From contig CM119265.1 in assembly GCA_051294375.1 (NCBI GenBank), forward strand, positions 2,973,256-3,037,255: a stretch of 64,000 nucleotides of DNA, given 5' to 3'. The position numbers and the translations under genes are program-made. The notes beneath the pieces were generated by a model, which saw nothing but the letters and a program-made list of their open reading frames with translations, searched no databases and had not been told where the DNA came from. Origin of the DNA: Paraspadella gotoi. Taxonomy: Eukaryota; Animalia; Chaetognatha. Below are positions 11,151 through 50,109 of this stretch, piece by piece (within the stretch, counting starts at the first letter, position 1; each line of letters starts with the position of its first letter).

Positions 11151-11270
11151 CTGAAATAATTGTTTTTTTTTTTGTTTATTATTATTAGCCACTTTAAAAC
11201 TTAAAACTTAAAACAAACTTATTAGAAAGTTATAGATACTAATTATAAATAATTCTCATTCTTAATATAC

Positions 11271-12431: not shown

Positions 12432-15400
12432 TCAATCAGCCCTTGACTCACCAACGTGGTAAGCCCAATGAAGCTCGGTATGAACGGGATTATCCATTTT
12501 CGAGTAGTCTAACCCAATCTGCAGGTTATAGTCCATGCAATGAATGGTATACACGGAACCAGCTGGTATCGAGCTTGAATAGAAATGCAATCCGTTCCAG
12601 TCGTAAAAGCGAAAGATTTCCTTATCAAGTTCGTCAAAGAAGCTGGAATTACAAGCTCCTTCAACGACCGGGGCCAAGTCTGGACTTTGAAGACTGCGTG
12701 CAGCGTGGAGATCTTCGTCGATCAAACCATCGCAGTCGTTGTCTTCGCCGTCGCCATTTTTCCATAAATGTGGGGCGATGAGATAATCCACTGCGGGGAA
12801 TTAGAGAGTTCTTTAATTAATAAATATTATGCTAAAAAGGCGTTAAAATAGTAGGGAATAATCTGATTATTTCATCTCATTTTTTACTATTACTCCTTCC
12901 TTTATTCATTTTTTTACCATCTTTTATTTTACTTTATATTTATTTTTTTTACATTATGTTTTGTTAAATTTTAAATATTTTTCTTTATTCGCTATTATTC
13001 TTTTATCTCTAGCTTTTTACACCTTTTTGCTTTTTTTTCTCCTTCTTTTTATCTATTGTTTCTATTTTTCTGTTTCTCTTTCTTTTTTTTCTGTATTTTT
13101 TTCCTCCCTCTTTTCCTTTCTTTTCCTCCCTCTTTTCCTTTCTTTCCCTCCATCTTTTCCTTTCTTTTCTTCCCTCTTTTCCTTTCTTTTCCTCCCTCTT
13201 TTCCTTTCTTGTTCCTTCCCTCATTTCTTTTCTTTTCATCCCTCTTTTCCTTTCTTTTCCTCTTCCTTTCTTTCTTTTCCTTTCTTTTTCCTCCTCTTTT
13301 CCTTTCTTTTCCTCCTCTTTTCCTTTCTTTTCCTTTCTTTCCTCCTCTTTTTCTTTCTTTTCCTCCTCTTTTCCTTTTTTCCTCCCTATTTTCCTTTTCG
13401 TTCCTCCCTATTTTCTTTCTTTTCCTCCCTCTTTTCCTTTCTTTTCCTTTCTTTTCCTTTCTTTTCCTCCGTCTTTTTCTTTCTTTTCCTCCCTCTTTTC
13501 CTTTCTTTTCCTTTCTTTTCCTCCCCTATTTTCCTTTCTTTTCCTCCCTCTTTTCTTTCTTTTCCCCTATTTTCCTTTCTTTTCCTCCATCTTTTCCTTC
13601 TTTTTCCTCCCTCTTTCCTTTCTTCTCCCTTTTCCTCCCTCTTTTCCCTTCTCATTTCCTCCATTACCTCCACTTTTGTCCGCCGGAGTCTCGCATCCCG
13701 GCCGATATTCCGGCAATCTCCCGGCGGCGGAAAATTGCGCGAGGACGGTAGAGTGCGGCAGGCGACGTGAACGCCCTCGACGACGCTGAAGCAGCCGGAG
13801 ACTTGAAGGATGTTGACGCCAAAAGACGCAGACGGGGGAAGCGTGCTCCAGGTGGACGAGCCGATCGCCTGGGATGGAAGAAGAGAGGAAAGGAGAAAAA
13901 AGAGAAGTAGAGAGGAAAGTCGGAAGGAAAGTGAATAAAGAAAGATAATAAAAAAGTGATTAGGAAAAAAGAAGAGAGGGAAAAAAGAAAGAAGAGAGGA
14001 GAAGGAAAATGAGAGAAAGAAAGAAAAAAAAATAAATCGATTGTAAGAATGAAATCTACCACAAGCAGGTTTGATTTTGTGTTCCTATACTATTTGAATA
14101 AAATACTAGTAAAATATTTCATTTTTTTAAGAAAATTACCTTTCCGCACTTCGTATTTGAAGTTGACGTAATCTAAATGAGTCATCGAGGTCCAGTTTTG
14201 CGAGATTTCTCATGGTTGATGTAAAGTCCTTCCTACATATTTTTATATTCAACATTAAAATAGAAATAATCCGGCAGTATTTATCAGTCTCACATTAAAT
14301 ACCTATACAATCCTCTTTGATCACGATAGAGAGGACATAAAAATTGTCACTGTCCAACAAAACGTCATATTTGTAGGAAAATGAGGCTGTGGGTGGAAAC
14401 TGAACCCAATGAGTTAGAGATTTTGACCATATTTCGCCATAACGTGACACGGACTGGAGCACTTGATCTTTACAAAGCGCTGTCGCCTGGCGACGGTTCG
14501 GAAAGAGATAGCACTTTGGATCTCTCTGGATTCGACGCATAACAAATTTATCGTCCAGATGCAGACCTAAATAAACAAAAGAGTTTCAATTGTTCTGTTT
14601 ATTTGCTTTGCAACACATTCATTAAACAAAAATATTATCTATTGTCTATCAGAAATGTTAAATTAAACTACAAAATAAATATCATAACGCACATCGCGTT
14701 AATGTATTAGATTAAATATCTTAGTTAAAATCTACTTAAAGTTCCTTTTATTGGTTTTTTTTGTTAATGACAAGTCGCAAGAGATGGAAAAGTTTAGCTT
14801 TCGTTTTCAAAACGTGTCCAGGACAAATCAATTTTCTCCGCGAATCATAGTATTGAAAAATCTTTTTATTAAATCAATATAAAAAAATAAAAATATTATA
14901 CCATAAAGAATAGTTGCAAGGTTGATCGCGACAAATGACAAATAATTTCTACTCCACCATGAATCAATTCCACGATATGATCCTGGTGCCATAAATTTTT
15001 GCGGAAGAACTTGAAACGTAACCAGCAAGAGATTGCATGATAATTTCACCAAATAAGATTGAAATTTTGTAGACATTTGAATCCAAATCTGATTTAAAAA
15101 AAAAAGGTCATTGTTGTTATCATAAAAATAAAGGGAAACTGTCTCAGACACGGAAGTTACTTATTTTTCACATTTTCTTACCAGTAACATTTAAGGCGGC
15201 GTATTCAGAAGTACTGGTTGCGTTTGAATAACTCTCTCATTTCTTTTACAGATGTATTTGTTACTGGAATGAGACCATAACGCAAATTGTTAGCTGATAA
15301 AGCCCATGTGTTTCTTGGAATTGATATTTGTAGCCCTGTCATTTGTAACAGTTGTATTAATGATTTTTATGTTAATATAAGTTTTTACTACTTCTTAAAC

Positions 15401-16989
15401 CTGAACATCCATGGGAAGCAGATAAAGAAAGCCGTACTCCCCGGATTTGCTCTTGTAGTAAGCTAAGACCAAGATCTCTACAGGGGAGCTCAGTATAATG
15501 ATCAGGGTCCGTCCTCTGGTGAACTGCATTCGTTCATCCAAGTCGAAGTTGGATACCTCATCTATCATTGGCTGGAAAAGAAAATATTGTCACTTAGCTT
15601 TTACCACTGATGATGACTTAAAAAATAGGTCGAAATATTGGCAAAAAAATAACGTTTTTGTACTCGCGCACTGCCTCTCAATAGTGAAATTAGAATTAAT
15701 ACTTAAACTACTCACAGTGCATGTGATTACTTTAAAGAATTGTATCTATTTTTTAAAATAATAGATATCAATCAATTCTCGTTATGTAATAAATTTTGTA
15801 CATTACGCAGTACGCACCAACAGAATTTTTTGAAAATAATTCTCTATTCTGTTAAGGTGTATGAAATTTAATTGCAAAAATACTGGATTATTTTTTTTAT
15901 CGAGCCAGACGGAACCCTGGCCGCTATACTTAAAATTACTTCTTTGTGACGTAGTCGTCGTCGTCGTTGTCTCGTCGTGTCGTCGTCTGTCGTGCGTCAC
16001 GCTTTTTTATATAATAAACTACTACGCTTTTTATAGTTTCGGCTGGGATTTAGTTTTTTTAAATAAAAATAACTATGAATTACGATGAAATTTTTATAAA
16101 AGTGTGCGATCATAGTAAGTTATTTTAAAATAATGGTAATAGGATAGAACGAAATTAACTCATTGAAGTCTTATTGAAGCTGGTGTGGTGCCTGTCATTC
16201 GACTCTCATCCCAAAATTCTTGGGTTCTACATTTTGAACCAAAGCTCCGGAGACTGCTTATTAATTCATTTATTATTTATCATTAATTGACACCAATGTA
16301 TCTGTCTCTGTAGTAATAATCAATTGTATCAATTTATAACCATTACTTAACCACATCAACTTACACGTCACAGAGAAAATCTGCAACAATCCATCCATCT
16401 CTGTTGACCAAATGAAACGTTACAGTGACCAATTGGTTCGCATGCAACATGAACGTCCACAATTGATCGCAGAAACGCGGCACAAAATGTTCCGCCCCAA
16501 TAATTCCGACCGTTCCATGGCGTTGATCAACCGGTCCCGAGCAACGTGACTCGTCCAAAGTCGTTTTTTCTGCTGCCAGACCATTGAAGTAGAGTTTCAA
16601 TCGGATCTCTCTCCTCCCAATCATGAATCGATTCTTCGCAGGCGACTCAAGAAGTTTCGCTCGACGGCTCTCATCAAAACCCTGGCGCCAATCCGAGCCA
16701 AAAGGATGGTCCATTCTGCGCGGATCGAGGATCGAACCAGCGTCGCATGCAACTGGCGACGCAGGTCAGACCAACGGGCAAAAAACCGGGAAAGGGAATT
16801 ATTCTGGTAATCCATCGAATTTTGAGAGGATGTAAGGAACAATAAGAGGAGAGGGGCATGAGGTTCTTGCGGCGCCAAAGGAAGGATTCAAAGAGGGGAG
16901 ACCTTCGTCGATGAGGCCGTCGCAGTCGTCGTCGACGCCGTTTGCCGGGAAGGTAGCGGAATGATGAGGATCTTCAATGGTACATCTCT

Positions 16990-17034
<45 letters not shown>

Positions 17035-20000
17035 AAGAGATTTTGTCTCTTTGTGCTGCATATATAATTTTTAGAAATTTATTATTATACAAAAACAGTA
17101 TTGAAAATCAGAAAACATAAGAGTGTACAAAGAAAGAAAACGTATAGAAGNNNNNNNNNNNNNNNNNNNNNNNNNATTGCAAAAATAAATATTCATACGC
17201 ACATCGCGTTAATGTATTAGATTAAATATCTTAGTTAAAATCTACTTAAGTTCCTTTATTTGGTTTTATTTTGTTAATGACAAGTCGCAAGAGATGGAAA
17301 AGTTTAGCTTTCGTTTTCAAAACGTGTCCAGGACAAATCAATTTTCTCCGCGAATCATAGTATTGAAAAAATCTTTTTTATTAAATCAATAAAAAAAATA
17401 AAAATATTATACCATAAAGAATAGTTGCAAGGTTGATCGCGACAAATGACAAATATTTCTAGCTCCACCATGAATCAATTCCACGATATGATCCTGGTGC
17501 CATAAATTTTGCGGAAAAACTTGAAACGTAACCAGCAAGAGATTGCAATGATAATTTCACCAAATAAGATTGAAATTTTGTAGACATTTGAATCCAAATC
17601 TGATTTTAAAAAAAAAAGGTCATTGTTGTTATCATAAAAATAAAGGGAAACTGTCTCAGACACGGAAGTTACTTTATTTTTCACTTTTCTTACCAGTAAC
17701 ATTTAAGGCGGCGTATTCAGAAGTACTGGTTGCGTTTGATAACTACTCATTTCTTTTACAGATGTATTTGTTACTGGAATGAGACCATAACGCAAATTGT
17801 TAGCGAAGCCCATGTGTTTCTTGGAATTGATATTTGTACCCTGTCATTTGTAACAGTTGTATTAATGATTTTTATGTTAATATAAGTTTTTACTAGTTCT
17901 TAAACCTGAACATCCATGGGAAGCAGATAAAGAAAGCCGTACTCCCCGGATTTGCTCTTGTAGTAAGCTAAGACCAAGATCTCTACAGGGGAGCTCAGTA
18001 TAATGATCAAGGGTCCGTCCTCTGGTGAACTGCATTCGTTCATCCAAGTGAAGTTGGATACCTCATCTATCATTGGCTGGAAAAGGAAAATATTGTCACT
18101 TAGCCTTTACCACTGATGATGACTTAAAAATAGGTCGAAATATTTGGCAAAAAAATAACGTTTTTGTACTCGCACTGCCTCTCAATAGTGAAATTAGAAT
18201 TAATACTTAAACTACTCACAGTGCATGTGATTACTTTTAAAGAATTGTATCTATTTTTTTTTAAATAATAGATATCAATCAATCTCGTTATGTAATAAAT
18301 NNNNNNNNNNCATTTCCTCCATTACCTCCACTTTTGTCCGCCGGAGTCTCGCATCCCCGCCGATATTCCGGCAATCTCCCGGCGGCGGAAAATTGCGCGA
18401 GGACGGTAGAGTTACGGCAGGCGACGTGAACGCCCTCGACGACGCTGAAGCAGCCGGAGACTTGAAGGATGTTGACGCCAAAGACGCAGACGGGGGAAGC
18501 GTGCTCCAGGTGGACGAGCCGATCGCCTGGGATGGAAGAAGAGAAGGAAAGGAGAAAAAGAGAAGTCGAGAGGAAAGTCGGAAGGAAAGTGAATAAAGAA
18601 AGATAATAAAAAAGTGATTAGGAAAAAAGAAGAGGAGGGAAAAAAGAGAAGAAGAGAGGAGAAGGAAAATGAGAGAAAGAAAGAAAAAGAAAATAAATCG
18701 ATTGTAAGAATGAAATCTACCACAAGCAGGTTTGATTTTGTGTTCCTATACTATTTGAATAAAATACTAGTAAAATATTTCACTTTTTTCAAGAAAATTA
18801 CCTTTCCGCACTTCGTATTTGAAGTTGACGTAATCTAAATGAGTCATCGAGGTCCAGTTTTGCGAGATTTTCTCATGGTTGATGTAAAGTCCTTCCTACA
18901 TATTTTTATATTCAACATTAAAATAGAAAATATCCGCAGTATTTATCAGTCTCACATTCAAATACCTTACAATCCTCTTTGATCACGATAGAGAGGACAT
19001 AAAAATTGTCACTGTCCAACAAAACGTCATATTTGTAGGAAAATGAGGCTGTGGGTGGAAACTGAACCCAATGAGTTAGAGATTTTGACCAATATTTCGC
19101 CATAACGTGACACGGACTGGAGCACTTGATCTTTACAAAGCGGCTGTCGCCTGGCGACGGTTCGGAAAGAGATAGCACTTAGCGATTCTCTCGGATTCGA
19201 CGCATCAACAAAATTTATCGTTCCAGATGCAGACCAATATAAACAAAAGAGTTATATTTCATTCTACTTTACAATTATGTTCCATTTTTGTTTATTGTTT
19301 TGCGACCCATCTTAAACAAAAATGTATCTATTGTCTATGCAGAAATGTTAAAGTAATCCGGTTATTGCAAAATAAATATCATACGCACATCGCGTTAATG
19401 TATTAGATTAAATATCTTAGTTAAAATCTACTTAATTGTTCCTTATTGGTTTTATTTTGTTAATGACAAGTCGCAAGAGATGAAAAGTTTAGCTTTCGTT
19501 TTCAAAACGTGTCCAGGACAAATCAATTTTCTCCGCGAATCATAGTATTGAAAAAATTCTTTTATTAAAATCAATATAAAAAAAATAAAATATTATACCA
19601 TAAAGAATAGTTGCAAGGTTGATCGCGACAAATGACAAAATATTTCTAGTCCACCAGAATCAATTCCACGATATGATCCTGGTGCCATAAATTTTGCGGA
19701 AAAACTTGAAACGTAACCAGCAAGAGATTTGCAAGATGATTTCACAAATAAGATTGAAATTTTGTAGACATTTGAATCCAAATCTGATTTTAAAAAAAAA
19801 GGTCATTGTTGTTATCATAAAAATAAGGGAAACTGTCTCAGACACGGAAGTTACTTTATTTTTCACTTTTCTTACCAGTAACATTTAAGGCGGCGTATTC
19901 AGAAGTACTGGTTGCGTTTGATAACTCACTCATTTCTTTTACAGATGTATTTGTTACTGGAATGAGACCGTAACGCAAATTGTTAGCGAAGCCCATGTGT

Positions 20001-21668
20001 TTCTTGGAATTGTATTTTGACGCCTGTCATTTTGTAACAGTTGTAATTAAATGATTTTTATGTAATATAAGTTTTTACTATTTCTTAACCTGTAACATCC
20101 CATGGAGCAATGAGAGAAGAGCCGTACTCCCCGGATTTGTCTTGCGTAGTAAGCTAAGACCAATCTCTACACAGGGAGTCCAGTATAATGATCAAGGGTC
20201 CGTCCTCTGGTGAACTGCATTCGTTCATCCAACGTGAAGTTGGATACCTCATCTATCATTGGCTGGAAAAGGAAATATTGTCACTTAGCCTTTACCACTG
20301 ATGATGACTTAAAAATAGGTCGAAATATTTGGCAAAAAAATAACGTTTTGTACTCGCCACTGCCTGCTCAATAGTGAAATTAGAATTAATACTTAATACT
20401 ACTTCACCAGTGCATGTGATTACTTTTAAAGAATTGTATCTATTTTTTTAAATAATAGATATCAATCAATCTCGTTTAGTAATAAATTTTGTACATTACG
20501 CAGTACGCACCAACAGAATTTTTTGAAAATAATTCTCTTATTCTGTTTAAGGTGTATGAAATTTAATTGCAAAAATACTGGAATTATTTTTTTTATCGAG
20601 CCAGGACCCGGCGAAGCTGGTCCTGGCCCTATAACCATTCAAAATTACTTCTTTGTGACGTAGTCGTCGTCGTCGTTGTCGTCGGCGTCACGCTTTTTTA
20701 TATAAAAACTACTACGCTTTTATAGTTTCGGCTGGGATTTAGTTTTTTTTAAATAAAAATAACTATGAATTACGATGAATTTTTATAAAAGTGTGCGATC
20801 ATAGTAAGTTATTTTAAATAATGGTAATAGGATAGAACGAAATTACTCATTGAAGTCTTTATTGAAGCTGGTGTGGTGGCCTGTCATTCGACTCTCATCC
20901 CAAAATTCTTGGGTTCTACATTTTGAACCAAAGCTCCGGAGACTGCTTATTAATTCATTTATTATTTATCATTAATTGACACCAATTATTCTGTCTCTGT
21001 AGTAATAATCAATTTGTATCATTTATAACCATTACTTAACCACAATCAACTTACAGTCACAGAGAAATCTGCAACAATCCATCCATCTCTGTTGACCAAT
21101 GAAACGTTCACAGTGACCAATTGGTTCGCATGCAACATGACGTCCACAATCTGATCGCAGAAAATCGCGGCAACAAATGTCCGCCCCCAATAATCCGACC
21201 GTTCCATGGCGTTGATCAACGGTCCCGAGCAACGTGACTCGTCCAAAGTCGTTTCTGCTGCCAGACCATTGAAGTAGAGTTCAATCGGATCTCTCTCCTC
21301 CCAATCATGAATCGATTCTTCAGACAGGCGGACCAAGAAGTTTCGCTCGACGCCTTCATCAAAAACCCTGGCGCAACCGAGCTCAAAGGATCGGTCCATT
21401 TCTGCGGGATCGAGGATCGAACCAGCGTCGATGCAACTGGCGACGCAGGTCAGACCAACGGGCAAAAAACCGGGAAGGGAATTATTCTGGTAATCGCATC
21501 GAATTTTGAGAGGATTGAAGGAACAATAAGAGGAGAGGGGCATGAGGTCTTGCGGCGCGAAGGAAGGATTCAAAGAGGGGAGATCTTCGTCGATGAGGCC
21601 GTCGCAGTCGTCGTCGACGCCGTTGCCGGGAAGGTAGCGGGAATGATGAGGATCTTCATGGTACATCT
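12432..21668 (-). CDS. Gene B middle exons: DxDCDGLIDE (Cu-binding_MopE-like) motifs and a second IgGFc-binding-like module, present in duplicated and frameshifted copies
   Basis: DNDCDGLIDED (~12710-12745) and DDDCDGLIDE (~16905-16940, ~21580-21620). Exons at ~13668-13868, 14303-14567, 14830-15337, 15400-15572 and 16375-16988 recur at 18326-21668. CSSPCHV..FPPTASFSYKYDVLLD..FYVLSIVI parallels the 24130-24383 exon. Boundaries are approximate. Confidence 0.6.
13080..13652. repeat. Polypyrimidine low-complexity tract (ttttcctccctc-like units)
   Basis: Almost pure C/T for ~570 bp. Confidence 0.9.
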
Positions 21669-21670
21669 CT

Positions 21671-21710
<40 letters not shown>

Positions 21711-21830
21711 TTTAAAGACGATTTTGTCTCTTTTGCGGCATATATATTTTTTAAAATTATTATTAATACCAAAAACAGTATTGACAAAATCAGAAACAGT
21801 AAGAGTGTAAAAGACAAGAAAACGGTAAAG
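13653..21830. repeat. Near-identical direct duplication/triplication separated by N-gaps
   Basis: 13653-17149 matches 18311-21830, and 14667-15794 matches 17176-18300. Differences are mostly 1-bp indels. Confidence 0.9.
15601..15645 (+). ncRNA. Degenerate minimal hammerhead-like motif (copies at ~18107-18150 and ~20292-20335)
   Basis: ttacca CTGATGA t GACTT aaaaat AGGTC GAAA tat(t) tggcaa: core and stem II present, stem III truncated. Confidence 0.35.
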
Positions 21831-22069
21831 AAGTAAAAACTAAACTATTAAAATTCAACAAAAACAAAAGCCACTAAGTTTTAAAATGGAACCATTAATA
21901 AAATGTTATGAACAAGTAACGTTCAAGAACTTTCAAAGATCAGATGTCAAAATCATAAAAACCAGAAACAGTAAAAAACAAAAAACGTCAAGTTGATAAA
22001 ATGTTCAAAAATAATGCGTAAAAACAAAAACAAAAAATATGAAGGAAAAAAATTAAAAAATATGAGAAC

Positions 22070-22207
22070 AAAAACATTACTTTAATGTTGTAACCTTAAA
22101 ATAAAAACATTACCTTAATGTTGTAACCTTAAAATAAAAACATTACTTTAATGTTTTAACTTTAAATTAAAAACATTACTTTAATGTTGTAACCTTAAAA
22201 TAAAAAC
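22070..22207. repeat. ~33-bp minisatellite x4
   Basis: aaaaacattactttaatgttgtaaccttaaaat is repeated. Confidence 0.85.
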
Positions 22208-22587
22208 AAACTGATACAGTTTTAGCCGAACAAATGCAAATGACAAAGGTTACAATTAAGCAAATCTGTTATTGGTCTTCATAATTGTGTTTTTTTGTTT
22301 TTTTGTTTTTTTGTTTTTTTTTTATGGCTTCGGCTAAAACTTGAAACATTTTGATGTTTTATCACTGAAAATAAGCAAAAACTGGAGAAGCATTTTTAGA
22401 AAACTTTCGTTCATTCAAATTATTTCTTCACATTATATGAGAATTTTTCTAAATAAAATTTTTTACCCCACACGTTTTACTGGAATCTTTTTTTATATAT
22501 TGTTTTGAATGTGTTTTTAAAAATCCTTTATGATTCTACTTTTTTCTTTTCTTCCTGCGCTCTATTTACTTATCTTTTTAAACTTAC

Positions 22588-25500
22588 CTTCGATCACGGG
22601 TTCGCAATTGAAGATGTTTTTCGGAATTCTTCCGGCGCCATAGAATCGGTCGAGGATGGTCGAGTTTATGCAGGCAAAGCGGCGCCCAGTGACGCCGTCG
22701 TCGCAGCCCTCGTTCTGGAAGACGTTTACGCCAAAAACGGCGCGCGGGTTGGCGTGGCGAAGATGTAAGACGGAGGTGCCTGGCGTTAAGAGCGAAAGAA
22801 TTATATGTACCTTTTTCTTCGAAGTAAGATATTATTTCATTCATTTTATGGTGGGATGTATGTATGTATGTAAGCGTTTTATCAGCCTAAAAAGTTTGTT
22901 TAAAATTTATATGATCTTATGGCAACAGCCGGGTTGCCTGTGATGCCCATTGGATGGGGCATCTCACTGTTGGCTTTGGGGGCTTCCGACCCTCAGTGAC
23001 GCCTCAGTCACTGGCGCGGTTACCCTAGGACGGTCTCCGCTTTGCCAACGCTAGAGGGAAGTCGTTTAGGACTGTGGATGGAAACGCTACGCCTGGGATG
23101 GTGTCGTCCCCCTCTGAGCCAATGGATTTGGCTGACGGATGGTGAACGTGAGGCGGTGTGAATATACCGCCAACAGGATCCCCGGGCCAAGACATCACTC
23201 AGGTTCCTCAGCCTGAGAGGTGCACTTTTTACCAATAGTGGGAGAAGAGAGAGAGAGAGGCGCGAGTTTGTGGGGGCATAGCGTTTTGTCCGTAGCGTAC
23301 CCAGGGCATAGGCGTTTGTCGTAGCGTACCCGAGAAGTTGGCAGGGCATAGGCGTTTTCGTTCGAGCCGGAACTCGGTGCGTACCCTAGAAGGTTCGGTG
23401 TTTGATAGTAGGGCTCACGCAACTTATGGCAACAGCCGGGTTGCCTGTGATGCCATTGGATGGGGCATCTCACTGTTGGCTTTGGGGCTTCGACCCTCAG
23501 TGACGCCTCCAGTCACTGGCGCGGTTACCCTAGGACGGTCTCGCTTTGCCAACGCAGAGGGAAGTCGTTAGGACTGTGGATGGAACACTACGCCTGGATG
23601 GTGTGTTCCCCTCTGAGCCAATGGATTTGGCTGATGGATGGTGAACGTGAGGCGGTGTGAATATACCGCCACAATATTTTGTTTTTTTCTAATTTCAGAA
23701 TTTATGATTATATACATTTATTCAGTACGTTTGTTCGATAAACAAATTGTTGTTTCTTTCATAATTAATTACTAATTATTTGGCTTAACAGAAAAACTTT
23801 TTTACCAATATCGATTTCATGTTTGATGTTGACATAGTCGGTATTGTTTATAATCAATTCCATTGAATCTTCGATAAGGTGGCCATTTGCGTAAATTCCT
23901 CTCTGGAAATTTGTTAATTAACAGTAGGGAGTCCTAATCAGCAATCACTCTCTCTCTCTCTCTCTCTCTCTCTTGCTCTCTCTCTTAAAATAATATTTTT
24001 ATAACACAGATATTGTAGAATTTTATCAGGTTTATTTAAAATTAAAGTTAGACTTTCATATTATTCGGTAATGTTAAATTTGTTCTTAATTTTTGAACTA
24101 GAACCTGAATTATTCCCCAAATCGCTCACCTTGTCCTTAGCTAAAACGACGATAGAGACGACGTAAAATTCTCCCGGGTCCAAAACGATGTCGTACTCGT
24201 TCGCAAAAGCATCGATTGGAGAATGGAAGGAAAACCAATAAGAAAAATCACTGTCCCGGGTGAGAACTAGGCAAGGACTAGAACAATCGACCCACAACCA
24301 CTGATGTTGAATAGAAGATAAATGGGCCACATGCAAGCTTTCCGACGCGCCCACCATGAACGTTTCTCCGGTGGTCAAGGATCTGAATTTGGCGAGATAT
24401 ACATAATATGTATATATATATACTATTACAATACAACGTAGTATGCATCTCTGAAAGTACACAGAGGAATTCAATCTTTCCATCAGAGACATTCTGTCAG
24501 AGACAAAGCGTGAGAAAAGTGTTAAATTTAATCGGGTATTCACCTCACGGTGACGTTGCAATCCAAATCTGGGCAGGATACAACCACGTTCACCGAGTGC
24601 CAGAGAAACTTATCTTTTTCCACATCCAAACTGACAGCGATTTCGACCAGATGGAATTGATGCCATCTGTCGACGGGGAGAACTTGAAGTTGACGAGTCA
24701 TGGAATCGAATTGGACAACGATCGACGAAGAAGAAGCTTTGATCATCACAATCGGCAAATTCGGTGGAATTTCTGGAATGAGACGGAACGAGGCCCCCAA
24801 AAAATGAGATTTAGTTTTAGGTTCCCCCCTGGGACAATAGAATGTTTCGTTATAGTCGTGGTACAAAGGCTTAAGTTTACCAAGGTACCGGGTTAAATTA
24901 CTTTTACCCATTCTAGGACCAGGACTCATTCCTTTGCTGGGGAATTTACCGAGTCGTTACTGCGTGATAAAAGTTTCCCCATTTCGGATTAAAATAAGAA
25001 TTTAGTATGTTTTCATGTTTAAGCATTAGGGTTTAAATTAGGGATTTGGTTGGAAATTTTGTTAAGGATTAGGGCTAGGGATTTGGGGATAATGTTAGCG
25101 ATTTGGGTTAGGGATTAAGAATTAGGGTTAGGGACAAGGTTAAGGTTAGGTATTAGTATTAAGGATTAGACTCTGATATTGGTTTAAGTATTTAGTAAAA
25201 TATTAAAATTAAAATTAATGGAATCAGAATCAGAAATAGGGTGCTTTCAGAGCCCAAGAAAGAAGCAACTTAAGAGAACACAGATTCAGGGAGATTGTCT
25301 TTGCATTTCTCCCAAAGTCTCACTTTTCACTTGCTCACTCCCCTTAAACTCACCAACAGGTATTTTTTTTATTTCACCAGCGACGAGGTTTTCCTCCCAC
25401 GAATCTTCCCAATTGGAAACACTCACATTCACAGTCACAGATTCAATGGCGACGATGCGAATATCAGCATTTGTGAAATAACTCGTACCCTGTTTTAAAT

Positions 25501-26657: not shown

Positions 26658-27294
26658 TTGTTTTGATAATTTACTATAAATATTTATATGCTCATAACTC
26701 TCGTAATACTTTATTTATATCAGAAATATATATACTGTATTATGAAACCTTCTTTTCGCCTCTGCAATCATATGGCCAGAAGCTACTGAGCCTTAAAGTT
26801 TATTATTTGACAGTCAGGATTTAAAGCTGCCTCACTTCTGTCCGTACTTTAGCCTCGTCTAAATAGCTGACCAGGCTAAATCATCTCGTTTCATCCGTGC
26901 GTCCAGGGTTCAATCCCCGGGTATAGCGGTTCTGACTTAAATGTTATGGAGCCGGTCTAAACATGCCAGTGATAGGAGGCAGTCACTGAGGGTCCACAGC
27001 CCCTACGCCAGTTGGTGAGATAACCCGAGCCCTGAGTAACGCAAGTAATCCTCCCTTTACCCTAATATAACATATTGTCTACAAGTTTCAAATGATTCGA
27101 ACACGAGGAAAGAAAGTTAATCAGGCGCAACACCTTTCCTCATTTACTACTACGTCGCTATGCAAATAGCAATGTCGTTTGAGACTAATTCAGCCCATTT
27201 AATTGTTTCATTTTAAGTAATATACGAACTTACCTTGGGCGAAGGAGTCCGCTGAGAGGACGGCGATGACGACAAAGAAGATTCGTGATAACAT
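22588..27294 (-). CDS. Gene B 5' exons: signal peptide and FCGBP-type IgGFc-binding-like N-terminal domain
   Basis: Exons 27234-27294 (MLSRIFFVVIAVLSADSFAQ), ~26449-26608 (PDYWGRDF, one homopolymer frameshift), 26115-26276, 25354-25489 (GTSYF), ~24544-24931 (LQVLPVDRW), 24130-24383, ~23805-23902 and ~22588-22779 (HANPRAVFGVNVF). Splice phases are mostly consistent. Domain identity is from motif resemblance only. Confidence 0.65.
22969..23049 (-). ncRNA. Twister ribozyme, P5 permutation (3' LTR copy)
   Basis: GTTGGC aaa GCGG a GA CCG tcctaggg TAA CCGC GC CAGTGAC..GTCACTG A GGG T CGG AA GC CCC caaa GCCAAC. Confidence 0.75.
23475..23553 (-). ncRNA. Twister ribozyme, P5 permutation (5' LTR copy; one G missing in L4, possibly a sequencing error)
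   Basis: Same motif as 27543-27623, except L4 reads TCGAAGC. Confidence 0.65.
24965..25270. mobile_element. MITE-like element with degenerate TTAGGG-rich interior
   Basis: ccccatttc at the left, gaaatagggtg at the right, ttaggg/ttaagg-rich middle; related to 28160-28730 and 31097-31450. Confidence 0.4.
26855..27065 (+). mobile_element. tRNA-derived SINE-like element carrying a probably inactivated twister module at 26932-27011
   Basis: B-box GGTTCAATCCC at 26907-26917, then ATGT TA TGG agccggtc TAA ACAT GC CAGTGAT..GTCACTG A GGG T CCA CA GC CCC; tail ctttacccta; homologous to 53109-53260 (-). Confidence 0.6.
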
Positions 27295-27420
27295 TTTCTT
27301 ACTTTCTTGTCTAAATAGTGTCAATATGAATTACTTCAATACGTAATAATAATGATTAAAAGAAGTTTAGTTTAGGATTTGATGACAGATTACGCTCACA
27401 GACGAGATTTAATAGTATAT

Positions 27421-27677
27421 TGTGGCGGTATATTCACACCGCCTCTCGTCCACCATCATTCAGCCAAATCCATTGGCTCAGAGGGGGAACACACCATCCC
27501 AGGCGTAGTGTTCCATCCACAGTCCTAACGACTTCCCTCTGCGTTGGCAAAGCGAGACCGTCCTAGGGTAACCGCGCCAGTGACAGGAGGCGTCACTGAG
27601 GGTCGGAAGCCCCCAAAGCCAACAGTGAGATGCCCCATCCCAATGGGCATCACAGGCAACCCGGCTGTTGCCATAAG
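27421..27677 (+). mobile_element. Solo LTR of the twister-bearing element, with ATAT target-site duplication
   Basis: Reverse complement of 23423-23673. ATAT at 27417-27420 and 27678-27681; the reconstructed empty site AGT-ATAT-ACT is palindromic. Confidence 0.85.
27543..27623 (+). ncRNA. Twister ribozyme, P5 permutation; predicted cleavage between U27569 and A27570
   Basis: P5 GTTGGC/GCCAAC; P2 CCGC/GCGA (one C-A mismatch); conserved GA at 27556-57; T1 CGG/CCG; UAA; T2 GC/GC; P3 CAGTGAC/GTCACTG; P4 GGG/CCC; L4 U-CGG-AA-GC. Confidence 0.8.
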
Positions 27678-30923: not shown

Positions 30924-33900
30924 ATGGCCGCCGCCGGCGACGATTGGCGGGTGGCGAAATGGCGAGCAAAAACCGAAAAACTCGAAGAGGAAATAAAAAG
31001 ACTTAAAAATGACGTCGAATCAGAAAGAAATAACGCGAAAGAAATCCTGACGAGACACAGAGCGGAAGTTGCAGAGGTAAGAAATAAAAGCCAATTTCGG
31101 CTCTCTTTTCCAAAGGAGCCTCATTTCTGTATCTTCATCACTTAAATTAAGTTGAACCTTCATCTTCGACCCTGATCAGTTAATAAACAAAGAATCTAAT
31201 CTAATCTAATCTCATCCTTAATGCTTAATCCTTAACTCAAACCCTAAACCTTAATCTTTAACCCTTGACCCTAATACTAAATTTAAGTTACTGTCCTTAA
31301 TCCTATTAATTAATCTAATCCTTAACCCTACTCCTTAACCTAATCATTAACCTATTCTCAAACCTTAATATTTAACCTATATTTTTAACTAAAAAATTAA
31401 CCCAATTCTGAATATAAGATGAAATGGGGCGTTCTCGGAAAGTAAGCCCGCATTTATTTTGTATTTAAAGAGAGAGATTCTGGATAGGAATCTGGGTAGG
31501 TTCTGATATTATTATTCATTATATTTTTTGCCTATATTTCAATTTACGTAGCGGAATAATTTTTTATGGCAGTTAACTTAAAATTGTGAAACAAAATGTG
31601 AATGGAAATATTTCCAATATTTGGGGGGGAAAAAATAAAAAAAGTTTGGCAAGTAAACAGGACAAGGTTCAGAAAGAATACAAAGAATTTTATCTACCCA
31701 TTGCATTCGATGTCCTTACAACAAAGTTTACAAACAATTTATATTACTTTTTATATAATATTGTATCAAATCTCAAAAATATTATCTCCTTTCCAACTGC
31801 GGATTGATCACGTTCAAGCAATCGTTTTCTTTTGACCAAAATTTGGTCAAATCCGGATACCACTTGACGGGAAGACTTGCATTGTGCAACGCCGAGCAGA
31901 GATGACAAAAGGATTGAGCGACGTTGAGCCTTCGGTCGCCGTAGACGTAGTAATCCTTTCGCCAGTCGAAGTAGCTGTTGTAGAGTCGATCGTCCGCGTC
32001 TATCTCCTTCAACTTCATCGCCAACTCCTTCGGAGTCAGACCGTTGGCGTCGACGAAAGAGTTGGGCGGCCCGTCTTCCTCGTAGTCGGACCCGCCTCTA
32101 ACGACGGGCACCACCAACGCGTCCATCAGCATGGACCAATACTTGCAGGAAGAGTAATCCCGACAGATGGAGTTTTCGAAAGCCAAGTAGAACTTGTATC
32201 GTTTGGTCAGCAAGGCGTAGCAATCTGGTGATCCTATGTTTGTCGTCTTGGGACATTTAAACGTCCCGCATCCGCCGTAGACGTCAACGTCGATGAAGCG
32301 ACGAAGTATCTGCACGTATTTCTCCCTTTGACTGTGGGGATGACAGTGAGAAACGAACCAAGCGGCCAAACGCGTCTTGTTGCCAGCGTAGTTGATTTTC
32401 TTGGCGTGAGCGGCCAATCGTTCCTCCACTGGCCTGATCTTGTAGACGCCGTGAGTCATCGGAATGTCGCTGTCTTTGCGATAAGTCATTGTCCAGTTGA
32501 AGAGATTGTCGAATCGACGAAGAGGTAAGCCAGTGTAGATGGGCGATTCCTGCATGAAGAAGATCCACCTTTGATGCCTCCGTTTTGATTTTGGCATGTC
32601 GAAGCCTTTGACGATCGAGCCTCGGACGAATTTGGCCGTAACAGCGACGTTGCGACAATGAAAGACGACGGCGTCGGCTACGGCGAGTCGACTTCGGTCG
32701 CTCGTCGTCTCGCAGGCGCGCTCGGGGCATTCAGCGTCGACGAAAGGTTGGATGCCGAGATTGAATCCGTAGGGTCGCTTCTCGAACCCTTTCTCCCAGA
32801 GGAGGATGAGCTTGCGGCGCTGGCTGCGACGTTGCGGCTTTGACGGCTGCTGTCGATTGAGAGGACGAGGAATGGAGAGGCCGACGTCGCGTCCGTAGTT
32901 CCATTGGCTCATTCGCCAAATTTGCAAAACGGCGAAGAGGAAAATAATTAAGAGGAGGAAATACTGAAGTCCGCGGAAGACGGCGTCGCGCGTCATCGTC
33001 GATTGCTGAATGGCGGGAAAACAAAATACAAAATTGAAGAGACGGTCATAATTGTTATGAGTTAGTGACAGAACCGTTCCCGCCTGTTACACAGTGTTAC
33101 AGCCTGATCCGAAGCTCATAACAATTATTATTGTCTCTTCGATATACTGTTTCCTACCAACATACAAAATATCATCTCCATCCATTCATCCGTTTACAAG
33201 TAATTGGATACTAACGCTAAGCGGGGACGGACATACGGACGGAGGGACCGACGGACATAATTTTGTTTGCATAATTTATCATAATTCGATGTTCTAATTT
33301 AGGAGACTGATCGACCAAATTATAGGGGGGGGCGACCGACAGACTTACAAAGTGGATAATAGAGTCGGAATCTGCCATAGACAGATCCGATTAAAAATTT
33401 ATTTTGTTTCATTGCATATGAAAGTAAAAACATAGAAAAATCTTTTGGCACTTATTTTATTATAGTATCTCAAATCGTTAAGACAGGGCAGAACGTTAAG
33501 TTTTTTCCAGATATATGATCCCATCTCTGTATCTAAAAAAATTAGTTTTATACGCTCCGATTAGTATTTCTTAAAATAGTCTTTTTATTGTTTATATTTG
33601 ACAGTTACATGACAAGTCATGGAGGCAATACATGAAATATAAAAGTTCAATCATTTAATGAGTGAACGGAGGCTTCGTAGTCGGCTCAACAACAGACATG
33701 ATTTTTTTTTAGTTAACGGAATTTATTAGTGAATGGCAAAGTTTTTGATTTTTGCAACAAATTTTAATTTAACATAGAAACGGACATGTTTCGGCTTTGG
33801 ATGCAAGCCTTCATCAGCGTTTTTACAGTTTTTGCCATTCTCTAATAAATTCAAAACAACGAAAAACAAAGGATTAAATACACTATGTTAACGGAATTAA

Positions 33901-36900
33901 ATTTGTATATATTTAAAATAATTAAAAATGCTTTCAAAGATTGAGTTGGCAAGACAGAGAATTCATAGATATAGACTTTGAGACCGAGTTCCATGTATTC
34001 ATTCCTCTTTGGAGAAACAATTTTTGAAAAGGATTAAGTTGAAATCGCAAAAAAGTTGAAAAAAAAGATGACTTTAATTACATTTATTACTATGTATCAA
34101 TATTGCTACGTTTTCGTTTTAAAAATTGTTTTTGGCTCTAAATTCGAAAAGTCGTAACTCGAATGAGTCTAAAGTTTAAAGTCATCCGTTCGTTTTGGAA
34201 AATTAAACTGTTTCTTTTTTTTTACAAATTTTTTTTATTTTAGTTTTGAAAACATTTATTTCGGTCGCCATGACGACGGTGAACAGCAGATTTTCTCCAA
34301 GCCTAATTAAAAACGGAAAAAAAGCTTTAATAATCAGAGAAATTTTCCTTTTTCAATTTTTTTTTGGAAAAAGAAAAAGAAATCAAACTTATACAATAAT
34401 NNNNNNNNNNNNNNNNNNNNNNNNNAGAGAGAGATTCCTATTCCATCCTTCCTCCTATCTTTCCCGCCCGTCCCCCGCCCGCCCCTGTGAATTTTAATTT
34501 TTCTCCTTCCTCCCTTCCCTTTTTCCTTCTTCCCCCTTACTCCCCCGCCCGCCCTGCTAATTCTATTCTCCTTCCTCCCCTCCTTTTTTCTTCTTTCCCC
34601 CTTCCGCCCCCCCCGCTGCTAACCTTCTATTCTCCTTCCTCCACTCATCCTTTTTCCTCTCCCCCAGCGCCCGCCCGCCCCTGCAATTCTATTCTCTTCC
34701 TTCTTCCCCCTGCCCCGCCCGCGCCCCTGCGAATTTTATTCTCTTCTCCTCTCCTTTTCTTCTTCCCCTCCCCCACCGCCCGCCCCTGCTAACTCTATTC
34801 TCCTTCCTCTCCCTCTCCTTTTTTTCTTCTTCCCCCCTCCCCCGCCCGCCCCTGCTAATTCTATCTCTTCCTCCCTCCTCCTTTTTTCCTTTTCCCCCTC
34901 CCCCGCCCGCCCTGCGAATTTTATTCTCCTCCTCCCTCTCCTTTTTCCCTTCTTCCCCTCCCCTCCGCGATAAAAGTTGGGACGAGGAGGTAGGTTCGTC
35001 CGCAACCGACTATCCCTCCTCCACCCAGCGATCCGAAGCGCCTTCGTCGGCCCGGAAAAAAATCTTGGAGGAATCGAGCGGCCGCCGGGGTTCATTCCCG
35101 CGGGAAGAAGTATAGAAGGTTAAGGGAATGACTCATCGGTTTGATGAATGCAGAATGAATGAATAATGAAATGAATGAATAAATATATCATCAATCATTC
35201 ATAACTAGAATTCGCCAACACAACAAATTACACCAATGGTTATTTGAGTCACTAAAACATTTATTTGCAAGGTAGATCATCATTAATTTAATCAACATAT
35301 TTAACCGTAAACTAATGATAATCGGCAACAAGTCCATCGTCAACAACTTATAACCAAATTAGATAAAGGCATTAACGATATATAATGGGGATATTGTGGC
35401 AATCGTTTCTAAACTATTTGAGTATTTTTAAATAAATTTGGTAGCCGATCGATAGGAATTTAAATACTATCTATATGCAAAAAATATTTCATAAAATCGG
35501 ATAATCCGTTTCAAAAGTATGGCAATAAAAACAGATGCGAAATCGAGCGCTTCAATAGATCAGCTTTCACTTAAAATCGAAGCTCGTTTTTGATCCAATA
35601 AGGATTTGAACTACTGTAGTATGAGCTTTAAAACGATGATAGGCGATTATGCGCGAACCGGGCCCATAAGAGAAAAATAGAATAGCGAAGCCCGAAAAAA
35701 AGGAATCCTTACAAAATTAATCAACAAATACATAATTAATAACAGAATAAAAAAGGGAAAAAGACAAGAGAGCCAAAGAAGTAAAAATTGAAAAGTATAA
35801 TTGACTGATCTCACCAGCAAAACTAACTATTACACTAACTCAATTTAAATATCGTTAATTCAAGATTAAGAATTCACTATCGTCACTTCACGATTAAAAT
35901 TTTTCATTTTTTTGAATCAGTTTAATTTTAATGATAACAGATTTAATATGATAGCAATAAAACTATAAATTAAAAGATAATGATTGATAATGGTAAGTAA
36001 ATTGATGCAATGAATAAAATTAATTAAACTAATGATGAGACGCATAGTTTAATATCTAAAATTTGTCATATCTGAATAGGCTTAATTTTATTATGAAACA
36101 AGTTTGAGCAAACAATGTCGGATTTTGAATAAGAATAATTTAGCCAGTAATCAGTTAAAAAGTATGCAAGTTGAAAAAAAGATATGCAAGTTGAAAAAGA
36201 TAATGCAAGTTGAAAAAGATGTGCGCAAGTTGAAAAAGATATGCAAGTGGAAAAAAGTATGCCAATTGAAAAAGTATGCAAGTTGAAAAACAAAAATATG
36301 CATACTTTGAAAAAAGTATGCATACTTTGAAAAAAGTATGCATACTTTGAAAAAAGTTATGGCATACTTTGAAAAAGTATGCCATAATTGGAAAAAAAGT
36401 AGCATAATTGGAAAAAGTATGCATACCTTTGAAAAAAAGTATGCATACTTTGAAAAAAGTTAAATGCAAATTTTAAAAAAAGTAAATGCATACTTCAAAA
36501 AAGTATGCATATTTAAAAAAGTATGCATACTTCAAAAAAGTTTGGCATACTTTGAAAAAAAGTATGCATACTTTGAAAAAATGTATGCATAATTGGAAAA
36601 AAGTATGCATAATTAGAAAAAAGTATGCATACTTTTGAAAAAAGTATGCAATATTTTAAAAAAAGTATGCAATACTTCAAAAAAGTATGCATACTTTGAA
36701 AAAAAGTATGGATATTTTAAAAAAGTATGCATACTTCAAAAAAGTATGCATACTTTGAAAAAGTATGCAAACTTTAAAAAAAGTATGCATACTTTGAAAA
36801 AGTATGCATACTTGAAAAAAAGTATGCATACTTTTTCAGAAGGTATGCATACTTTTTTTGAAGTATGCAATACTTTTTTTAAAAATACGCATACTTTTTT

Positions 36901-39900: not shown

Positions 39901-40854
39901 CTACGTCAAGAACCGGCAGGCAGACGCAACGTTGGTCAACGGCAGCCTCGACGACGGTCGACCGCCGCGTCGGCGACTTTAGCAGCGGCGACGACGTCAG
40001 CAGGCAGCGGCGAGGTTGGCAGAGCGCTGGCTGCTGACGAACTTAATGCCCAAATCGAGAGAGCTGAAGCGAATTGGGGAAATTATGGAATCGAGGCTGA
40101 TGACGGACGGGATGTGAGGTGAGGTTGAGTCAATTATTGTCAATTTAATCAAAGTTATATTGTTCAATTTTAGGGAATTATAGTAAATTTAGTCTGTAAT
40201 GATGTTATTTATGTTTTTTATGTTATATATAAATCTAGTTTTCCGGAACTTGTAGTTTTTTTATCGTCATTTGCATATTACAGGATTAAAGTTTACAGTT
40301 TAATTATAATTACAGATAATACGAAGGAAGTTAGATGGTACAAATGTAACAAATAAAGGATTTTTTTTCAGATTTAAATTTTAAATGCTGGGTTAGGAGC
40401 TTTACTAATTAGTAATTGTAATAAATTAATTTATCAGAACAAGAACAACTTTGGCCACGCCGCACCCGGATGAAGAATCGGAGAATCCCGTATAATCGTT
40501 AACCTCGAATAGGCTCGAACATTAAAACAGAAAATAATTGATAATTGATATTAGAAATATAATCACTTAATAAAGAATAAAGACTACGTAATGAGTTTAG
40601 TCTTGGCCTGCTTTTCTTTAGTTTAGATTTTAATTGTTAGTTAATAGAACTTTAATTTACTTTGTTTATTCATTAAGTTTTTTTTCTTCTTCTTGTTTTA
40701 TCTTCTCTTCTTCTTTAATTCTTTCTTTCTTTCTTTTCTTTCTTTTTTCTTTCTTTCTTTCTTTCTTTCTTCTATTCTATTCTCGTTCTCTCACTCTCTT
40801 TCTCTCCTCTCATCTTCTCTCTCTCTTACCTCCACTTCTTCGTCTCCGATCACT

Positions 40855-40901
<47 letters not shown>

Positions 40902-43900: not shown

Positions 43901-44089
43901 GCCTCGCTTTCTTCGCCGGCCAACCGCAGCTTTCCCGCCGCGGTAGCGTCGCGGCGCGAAGGAAGAGATCGAGAGAGAGATCAGCAGCGAGCGAGTCGGA
44001 GGTCCTGAAAGAAGTTGGACGCAAGAGATACAGATGAGCGAAAGATGAGAGGACGAGAGAAGAGATGAAAAGAAAAGAAGAAAGAATGA

Positions 44090-44141
<52 letters not shown>

Positions 44142-50052: not shown

Positions 50053-50109
<57 letters not shown>

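What the first reader, a model, noticed from the sequence alone, without database searches (positions are those of the whole stretch)
22916..23673. Miniature LTR element with a twister ribozyme in each terminal repeat (candidate animal twister retrozyme)
Seen: two ~255-bp direct repeats around a 247-bp non-coding interior, with an ATAT-type target duplication. Each repeat has the twister elements in P5-permuted order: P5-P2'-GA-T1'-P1-UAA-P2-GC-P3-A-P4-U.NNN.AA.GC-P4'-P5'. Known: retrozymes are non-autonomous retroelements whose repeats carry hammerheads; tandem self-cleavage releases a monomer that circularises. Inference: cleavage at the two U|A sites (23527 and 23022) would release a ~505-nt unit RNA, so this may be a twister-based LTR retrozyme mobilised in trans. 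I am not aware of this architecture being well described, but have not checked the literature. It lies sense to the gene B pre-mRNA, so host transcription would run through both ribozymes.
Basis: partly seen in the sequence, partly recalled or inferred. Interest (0 to 1): 0.92.

Follow-up and report, generated by a model that had tools for sequence, protein, structure and literature searches.

The report
Twister ribozyme in miniature LTR retrotransposon
A small, non-coding, much-repeated jumping element of an invertebrate animal carries in each end repeat a tRNA-like promoter motif followed by a twister-type RNA fold, which likely cuts the element's transcript into one unit that would circularise and be copied back into the genome, a design I found described only for plant elements that use a different ribozyme.

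Summary
The feature is real. 22916-23673 is a 758-bp non-coding LTR element on the minus strand: two ~255-bp LTRs, a tRNA-Trp-like primer site behind the first, a G-rich tract before the second, TG start, ATAT target. An empty allele exists in another run, and a solo LTR with a perfect ATAT duplication lies at 27421-27677. Each LTR holds a P5-permuted twister fold; the U|A sites are 505 nt apart. Rfam does not call it, but a structure descriptor does (0 hits in 7.7 Mb of shuffles), and a second abundant subfamily (26806-27066) keeps the fold through four double-sided pair changes. Caveats: the two assembled LTRs each carry 6-7 one-base indels that damage the motif (probably assembly error), the duplication here is only AT, and cleavage, circles, Pol III use and the Gypsy partner are untested. 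Best reading: an animal twister LTR retrozyme; no such combination found in seven paper searches.

The parts
22916..23673 (-). Full element, subfamily A: LTR - 247-bp interior - LTR, non-coding
   Evidence: empty allele joins 22913 to 23674 (X2 record 9)
23423..23673 (-). 5' LTR (251 bp as assembled), starts TGTGGC, ends GCCATAAG
22916..23175 (-). 3' LTR (260 bp as assembled)
23610..23620 (-). Pol III A-box-like motif in the 5' LTR
23578..23586 (-). Pol III B-box-like motif in a T-arm-like hairpin, 5' LTR
   Evidence: hairpin checked on the solo copy
23475..23553 (-). Twister fold, P5-permuted, 5' LTR; predicted cleavage between U23527 and A23526; one T1-loop base missing as assembled
22969..23049 (-). 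Twister fold, P5-permuted, 3' LTR; predicted cleavage between U23022 and A23021; one extra base before the GA as assembled
23528..23535 (-). 8-nt self-complementary P1 segment (same at 23023-23030)
23407..23422 (-). Primer-binding site, tRNA-Trp-like; the window copy has two single extra bases that most contigs lack
   Evidence: table 4; loose ends; (PBS figure of PMC10886601)
23176..23190 (-). G-rich tract before the 3' LTR, weak polypurine-tract candidate in this copy
   Evidence: a longer G-run before a B-type LTR in X11
23674..23677 (.). ATAT target sequence on the 5'-LTR side; only AT (22914-22915) is repeated on the other side
23022..23526 (-). Predicted 505-nt unit RNA between the two cleavage sites
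   Evidence: inference
27421..27677 (+). Solo LTR, subfamily A, perfect ATAT/ATAT duplication, intact twister descriptor (27543-27623), A box 27474, B box 27510
26806..27066 (+). Older solo LTR, subfamily B: A box 26864, B box 26908, twister fold 26932-27011 with U at the general-base position in this copy
22780..23802 (-). Host-gene intron that contains the element

Best explanation
This is a miniature, non-coding LTR retroelement whose end repeats each carry a tRNA-like promoter motif and a twister ribozyme fold; it is likely transcribed from its own first repeat, is predicted to cut itself once in each repeat to release a 505-nt unit RNA that would be circularised, and is likely copied and inserted at ATAT sites by a Gypsy partner. 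Shown: LTR-PBS-interior-G-tract-LTR layout, sharp ends, ATAT target, empty allele, solo LTRs, high abundance, twister fold conserved between two subfamilies. [quoted passage not shown]
For: Layout and ends; loose ends in X2, X5 and X10 show a TGGTGAGCC start directly behind the LTR end, 11 of 13 bases like the tRNA-Trp site of Gypsy-32_NVi; CsRn1 Gypsy elements are defined by a Trp primer site and 4-bp duplication (PMC3630058). Flank consensus at LTR ends is AT-rich and unlike between contigs (agreement 0.40-0.57) with ATA/TAT next to the end. Mobility: empty allele. Abundance: summed contig depth over the LTR about 1.8 million against 164 in the flank in X2 (not a copy number). Twister: the solo copy has 24 of 25 core pairs (P5, P2, T1, T2, P3, P4), the GA, UAA, junction A and U-NNN-AA-GC loop; descriptor hits 0 in 60 shuffled windows (7.66 Mb) and 0 in 20,000 LTR shuffles. 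Subfamily B differs on both sides of 4 core pairs (2 in P2, 1 in T1, 1 in P5) and keeps them paired; at the general-base position 97% (X2) and 99% (X5) of contig depth reads G, and one X10 contig carries all these letters in phase. P2 mismatches and an A-to-C change at the trans A-A pair are tolerated in tested natural twisters (PMC11662667). Promoter: A+B box pair in 3 of 4 LTR copies, 7 of 10,000 shuffles; T-arm hairpin kept in both subfamilies. Plant precedent for the cycle, including solo LTRs from a circular template: PMC4918200.
Against: No RNA evidence, cleavage assay or partner element. Rfam twister-P5 gives no match at E<=10. Both LTRs of the full element fail the strict descriptor as assembled, and the 3' LTR also fails the A/B-box scan. 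The monomer's lowest-energy nested fold is non-native, 10 kcal/mol below the twister fold without pseudoknots, with P2 and P4 pair probabilities near 0.02. The predicted circle is only 55% paired and 5 of 60 shuffles fold as well, below the >70% reported for retrozyme RNAs. The target duplication here is 2 bp, the LTR ends in AG rather than CA, and this copy's G-tract is a poor polypurine tract. The loose A/B pattern also hits 3 places in the window outside the LTRs. Covariation rests on two related subfamilies only.
Confidence: 0.58

Rival explanations
1. Same element and active twister, but a linear cycle: the ribozyme mainly forms the RNA 3' end in the second LTR, replacing a Pol III terminator, while the first copy often stays uncut, leaving a ~100-nt terminal repeat for ordinary strand transfer.
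For: No run of four T on the transcribed strand; the A box lies ~100 nt upstream of the cut, which would define a usable R region; the monomer tends to misfold, so cutting may depend on context; the circle is not unusually structured; Cassandra-type TRIMs use a short R made by Pol III (PMC10886601).
Against: The two LTR ribozymes are the same sequence, with P5 and P3 local and stable; absence of T4 is not significant (858 of 2000 shuffles); a self-complementary P1 would favour cutting both sites together.
Confidence: 0.2
2. A TRIM that captured a tRNA-headed, twister-bearing SINE-like piece in its LTR; the fold is inherited or only weakly active and is not part of the LTR cycle.
For: Kojima proposes SINE insertion as the origin of Pol III TRIMs; Pol III SINEs with ribozymes are known in schistosomes (PMC6765202); C-A mismatch in P2 of subfamily A and non-native lowest-energy fold; no Rfam call.
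Against: Four double-sided pair changes and retention of GA, UAA and T2 between subfamilies whose LTRs have otherwise diverged widely point to continuing selection on the fold.
Confidence: 0.13
3. A Penelope-like (pseudo-LTR) derivative, i.e. a two-unit non-LTR retrozyme with a twister in place of the hammerhead.
For: Animal retrozymes derive from PLE pseudo-LTRs (bioRxiv 10.64898/2026.07.22.740005); palindromic short stems and dimer cleavage are PLE traits; unchecked earlier notes report twister folds lacking a first helix in Naiad PLE repeats.
Against: Metazoan non-LTR retrozymes lack PBS and PPT and have larger duplications (PMC7229834); here there is a Trp-like primer site, a G-tract, a TG start, a unique interior, sharp ends and a 4-bp ATAT duplication. 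A PLE origin of the ribozyme itself is not excluded.
Confidence: 0.06
4. The paired repeat is an assembly duplication or two chance neighbouring solo insertions.
For: Many one-base indels between the repeats and an imperfect duplication.
Against: Both LTR-interior junctions and the interior are covered by contigs in four independent runs, and the empty allele lacks the whole 760 bp.
Confidence: 0.02

Closest known systems
Plant LTR retrozymes (Cervera et al. 2016, PMC4918200; passages seen)
   Same: Non-coding element, ribozyme in each LTR, PBS and PPT, 4-bp duplication, solo LTRs, presumed Gypsy partner, unit RNA between the two cuts
   Different: Animal host; twister instead of type III hammerhead; Trp-like instead of Met primer; smaller (758 bp, 505-nt unit); internal A/B-box motif; circle not shown and predicted fold less paired
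Helenus / TRIMp3 (Kojima 2024, PMC10886601; parts 1-4 of 6 of the text, supplement parts 1, 6, 10 and one six-term search seen)
   Same: TRIM under 1 kb with tRNA-derived A and B boxes in the LTR, 4-bp duplication, Gypsy-type PBS (Trp in one wasp group), solo LTRs
   Different: In the Helenus LTRs I saw, the tRNA-like part lies near the 3' end and is followed by a short T-rich tail and CA; here it lies in the 5' half, is followed by ~150 nt with a twister, has no T run and the LTR ends in AG/AT/CT. No ribozyme is described for Helenus.
Twister ribozyme, type P5 (review PMC5408937, passages; Rfam twister-P5 model searched; Roth et al. 2014 not held)
   Same: Termini in P5; P2, P3, P4, T1, T2, GA, UAA and L4 motif in the expected order
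   Different: No Rfam P5 match; P1 only 2 bp plus a 4-nt loop, self-complementary; C-A pair in P2 of subfamily A
Twister variants at the 5' end of Perere-3/RTE non-LTR elements (PMC8501958, abstract and sections 3, 17; PMC7761336 passage)
   Same: Twister linked to a retroelement in an invertebrate
   Different: Those are P1-type, single, at the 5' end of autonomous non-LTR elements; here paired, P5-type, inside LTRs of a non-autonomous LTR element
Dimeric hammerheads of PLEs, newts and axolotl retrozymes (PMC6765202, PMC7229834; passages)
   Same: [quoted passage not shown]
   Different: Different ribozyme class; twister P1 is dispensable in vitro, so dimer dependence is not expected by default

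Membership tests
TRIM (non-autonomous LTR retrotransposon) | Two LTRs, under 1 kb, no coding capacity | tested here: met
   758 bp; only stop-to-stop frames without a mobility domain-sized ORF
TRIM (non-autonomous LTR retrotransposon) | Primer-binding site directly behind the 5' LTR | tested here: met
   11 of 13 bases like a Trp PBS; host tRNA-Trp itself not available (one search found no tRNA in the window)
TRIM (non-autonomous LTR retrotransposon) | Polypurine tract before the 3' LTR | tested here: inconclusive
   Short G-run in the window copy; longer G-run in one X11 contig of subfamily B
TRIM (non-autonomous LTR retrotransposon) | 4-6 bp target duplication | tested here: inconclusive
   Perfect ATAT at the solo A copy, 3 of 4 at solo B, only AT at the full element
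TRIM (non-autonomous LTR retrotransposon) | TG...CA ends | tested here: not met
   Starts TG; ends GCCATAAG, with AT or CT endings in other copies
Twister ribozyme type P5 | P2, P4, T1, T2 pairings and conserved GA, UAA, L4 bases in P5-permuted order | tested here: met
   Met in the solo A copy and by the majority contig letters of subfamily B; not met letter for letter in the two assembled LTRs of the full element
Twister ribozyme type P5 | Match to the Rfam twister-P5 model | tested here: not met
Twister ribozyme type P5 | Covariation of helices | tested here: met
   4 double-sided changes between two subfamilies, none breaking a pair in B; only two lineages
Twister ribozyme type P5 | Self-cleavage at U|A | not testable with these tools
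   needs an in vitro assay
LTR retrozyme | Hammerhead (type III) in each LTR | tested here: not met
   No hammerhead family matched; the fold is twister
LTR retrozyme | Abundant circular unit RNA | not testable with these tools
   All served runs were contigs, none on record as RNA
LTR retrozyme | Ends, PBS and PPT shared with an autonomous Gypsy family | not testable with these tools
   No host genome held; only a PBS likeness to a wasp Gypsy
Helenus / TRIMp3 | tRNA-derived A and B boxes in the LTR | tested here: met
   3 of 4 copies, 7 of 10,000 shuffles; canonical GGTTC in B, TGTTC in A; ARAGORN calls no tRNA
Helenus / TRIMp3 | Sequence kinship with a described Helenus family | tested here: inconclusive
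   Six-term search of the supplement found no shared PBS or twister core word; sequences could not be aligned, and only 3 of 11 parts were read
Helenus / TRIMp3 | Pol III transcription | not testable with these tools
   needs start mapping or inhibitor test
Non-LTR (PLE-derived) retrozyme | Head-to-tail tandem units without PBS/PPT, duplications longer than 4 bp | tested here: not met
   Unique interior, PBS, 4-bp ATAT

The most novel reading that the evidence does not exclude
The first animal LTR retrozyme and the first twister-based one: a Pol III-driven TRIM whose two twisters cut only as a strand-swapped dimer through a palindromic P1, so that only two-LTR transcripts are processed into a circle, and whose circle is reverse-transcribed directly into the many solo LTRs.
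Probability: 0.22. Interest if true: 0.9.

Novelty: new variant of a known kind. Interest (0 to 1): 0.76.

Why it matters
It would extend the LTR retrozyme cycle from plants to animals and from hammerhead to twister, showing that the design (a self-cleaving RNA in each LTR, a circular template, a borrowed Gypsy machinery) arose more than once. It gives twister ribozymes, which have few assigned roles, a concrete and cheaply testable one, joins two separately described LTR oddities (Pol III TRIMs and retrozymes) in one element, offers a natural candidate for a dimeric twister, and shows that Rfam models miss abundant animal twisters. Sense insertions in introns, as here, are polymorphic and could cut host pre-mRNA.

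Tried and rejected
No host genome is held, so copy number, duplication consensus and partner search could not be run. Pattern scans: metagenome contigs gave 7 loci, all 7 chance matches in GC-rich prokaryote-like DNA with no twister context; viral contigs 0; prokaryote genome contigs 0. No RNA holder listed among 11 runs; two runs only guessed as RNA; not used as evidence. Summed contig depth is not a copy number, so the LTR-to-interior ratio (roughly 20-35 to 1 in X2) is only suggestive of a solo excess; overlapping short contigs inflate it. Absence of T4 runs on the transcribed strand is not significant (858 of 2000 shuffles; at most one T3 run in 95 of 2000). Whole-ribozyme folding z-scores are weak (-0.5 to -1.8). 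The dimer model: swapped native dimer -58.4 kcal/mol against -43.0 for two native monomers, but still above two misfolded monomers (-63.2) and the dimer minimum (-68.4), all without pseudoknots; chance of a palindromic 4-nt loop is about 0.06 per subfamily, 0.25 if the loop must be C-N-N-G, so this is a lead only. Three hairpin rows (the two 3' hairpins of A and the one of B) were entered out of register and were dropped; the 5' hairpin row of B (4 of 6 paired) was not counted. A pair count on alignment A3 failed on a length slip and was not repeated because the alignment misregisters the B copy. Host gene domains: only a sub-threshold MopE motif. Earlier-finding look-ups by sequence, place and LTR words gave nothing relevant. 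Roth et al. 2014 is not held, so the original P5 alignments and any tandem or palindrome remarks there were not seen; Repbase was not searchable, so the family may be catalogued there without the ribozyme.

Full report
OBSERVATION. Two direct repeats lie at 23423-23673 and 22916-23175 around a 247-bp interior. They differ by 3 substitutions and 11 one-base indels. The ribozyme-like motif reads on the minus strand, with U|A at 23527/23526 and 23022/23021, 505 nt apart. The element sits in an intron (22780-23802) of a minus-strand gene, sense to it. The host is an invertebrate animal; no genome is held.

IT IS A MOBILE LTR ELEMENT. A third copy, a solo repeat at 27421-27677, is flanked by ATAT on both sides and fixes the ends as TGTGGC...GCCATAAG. 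Laying public contigs on the locus (4 of 11 listed runs) gave an empty allele in X2 (one contig, 324 and 262 letters on the two sides, joining 22913 to 23674), contigs across both repeat-interior junctions, and many unlike AT-rich flanks at the repeat ends. Against the empty allele the full element repeats only AT, not ATAT. Directly behind the repeat end, contigs of X2, X5 and X10 continue with TGGTGAGCC, 11 of 13 bases like the tRNA-Trp primer site of Gypsy-32_NVi (supplement of PMC10886601); a Trp primer site and 4-bp duplication mark the CsRn1 Gypsy lineage (PMC3630058 passage). The window's primer site has two single extra bases that most contigs lack (table 4). Before the second repeat lies a short G-run, longer in one X11 contig. 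Summed contig depth over the repeat is about four orders of magnitude above the flank; the tool warns that this is no copy number, so I take it only as 'at least hundreds'. Three insertions in 64 kb agree with that.

THE TWISTER FOLD. Rfam gives 0 hits at gathering and no twister-P5 match at E<=10; only partial twister-P1 matches of 15.0, 13.5 and 19.4 bits. A descriptor written from the published domain order (PMC8501958 section 17; PMC5408937 passages) matches the solo copy and nothing else in the window, with 0 hits in 7.66 Mb of shuffled window and 0 in 20,000 shuffled LTRs. The solo copy has 24 of 25 core pairs; the exception is C-A at the first P2 pair. The two LTRs of the full element fail: one lacks a T1-loop base, the other has an extra base before the GA. 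Each differs from the solo by 6-7 one-base indels, 11 of 13 in runs, and contigs mostly lack these indels (table 4); for a polymorphic, young insertion this pattern is most simply uncorrected assembly error (inference), but true decay is not excluded.

A SECOND SUBFAMILY GIVES COVARIATION. 26806-27066 is a diverged solo copy, homologous over both halves (0 of 500 shuffles reach the score). It is itself abundant in X2 and X5, ends in the same way, and has primer-side and G-tract junctions in other contigs. The window copy has U at the general-base position, whereas 97% and 99% of contig depth reads G; one X10 contig covers 26851-27013 with 17 differences and no gap and carries the majority letters in phase. 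With those letters all 24 core pairs form. Four pairs differ from subfamily A on both sides and stay paired: two in P2, the middle of T1, one in P5. B has CA in place of AA in L4; that change and P2 mismatches did not reduce cleavage among tested natural twisters (PMC11662667, passages and section 32 part 1; PMC5113685 part 1). Against activity: the nested twister fold of the monomer is 10 kcal/mol above a non-native fold when pseudoknots are ignored, and only two lineages were compared.

(a) Upstream of the ribozyme, 3 of 4 LTR copies carry an A box and a B box 34-44 nt apart; 7 of 10,000 shuffles do, and 3 unrelated places in the window also match the loose pattern. The B box sits in a T-arm-like hairpin in both subfamilies. 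This is the defining trait of Helenus/TRIMp3 (PMC10886601), but in the Helenus LTRs I read the tRNA-like part is near the 3' end and followed by a T-rich tail, whereas here a twister follows and the transcribed strand has no T4 run (not significant alone). (b) P1 is an 8-nt segment that can form only 2 pairs as a hairpin (+2.7 kcal/mol) but pairs with a second copy of itself (-11.0). Subfamily B has a different central tetramer that is also self-complementary. A strand-swapped dimer is 15 kcal/mol better than two native monomers but not better than the misfolded state. The parallel is the dimeric hammerhead of PLEs and newts (PMC6765202, PMC7229834 passages). P1 is dispensable for twister cleavage in vitro, and a C-N-N-G tetraloop would explain most of the symmetry, so I rate dimer dependence at about one in three.

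MECHANISM. Most likely (0.58): Pol III (or host read-through) makes an RNA through both LTRs; both twisters cut; the 505-nt unit, holding one rejoined LTR, the primer site and the G-tract, is ligated to a circle; a CsRn1-type Gypsy copies it from tRNA-Trp and inserts it at ATAT. In the plant model a circular template yields solo, full and multimeric products (PMC4918200), which would fit the apparent excess of solo LTRs, though the depth ratio is soft. Component odds: LTR-type non-autonomous element 0.92, active twister 0.8, Pol III 0.6, circle as the main template 0.55-0.6. The predicted circle is only 55% paired and 5 of 60 shuffles fold as well, which counts against a viroid-like fold. Rivals: linear cycle with the twister as terminator (0.20), passenger ribozyme (0.13), PLE-derived tandem unit (0.06), artefact (0.02).

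COMPARISON AND NOVELTY. It works like a plant LTR retrozyme but is not a member by the defining hammerhead; it meets the TRIM layout except the CA end; it meets the Helenus promoter trait without shown kinship. LTR retrozymes are described from plants with hammerheads, animal retrozymes as non-LTR (bioRxiv passages); twisters are linked in print to RTE/Perere-3 non-LTR elements. Seven full-text searches (listings and abstract starts only, then the passages named above and) showed no twister in an LTR or TRIM, no animal LTR retrozyme and no natural dimeric twister. Subscription journals, Roth et al. 2014 and Repbase were not available, and bioRxiv supplements are closed, so a prior mention cannot be excluded. 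Unchecked earlier notes of this scan report twister folds in Naiad PLE repeats and a P5 twister missed by Rfam; they suggest a possible source for the ribozyme but are not support.

VERDICT. Observation partly confirmed (core real; duplication and motif imperfect as assembled). New variant of a known kind. Interest 0.76; the dimer, Pol III, circle version has probability about 0.22 and would merit 0.9.

Noticed in passing
window 27421-27677 (+): Solo LTR of the same family about 125 bp upstream of a signal-peptide-like first exon of the minus-strand host gene; an X2 contig stops matching at 27418 with 30 further letters, so it may be absent in that sample.
   Followed up: partly
window 26806-27066 (+): Older solo LTR of a second abundant subfamily, shared with samples X2 and X5 at this place; both bases of one T1 pair differ from the majority yet still pair.
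   Followed up: yes
window 23290-23395: The interior holds three to four imperfect repeats of a ~20-40-nt unit and a (GA)n run; contig joints show unit number varies between copies (table 5c).
   Followed up: no
window 13653-21833: Tandem segmental duplication (3.6 kb, 92%) of the 3' exons of the host gene with frame differences between copies and N gaps; fits an assembly with uncorrected indels.
   Followed up: no
window 2339-6202 and 8500-11175 (-): Two long single-frame genes; the second has VWA, ZP, Sushi and EGF domains and both end in a hydrophobic segment, uromodulin-like surface proteins.
   Followed up: partly
window 31782-33086 (-): Single-exon alpha-1,3-fucosyltransferase; best named hits are chelicerate and crustacean proteins at about 40% identity, so the host is an invertebrate animal, perhaps an arthropod, not further placed.
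   Followed up: partly
window 38000-55000 and 62450-62750: Cluster of nested direct and inverted repeats of 0.3-2.2 kb at 75-97% identity, not examined.
   Followed up: no
window 22034-22231: 33-bp tandem repeat, five to six units, internally palindromic.
   Followed up: no
window 36150-36906: AT-rich tandem array that is also its own inverted repeat, MITE- or foldback-like.
   Followed up: no
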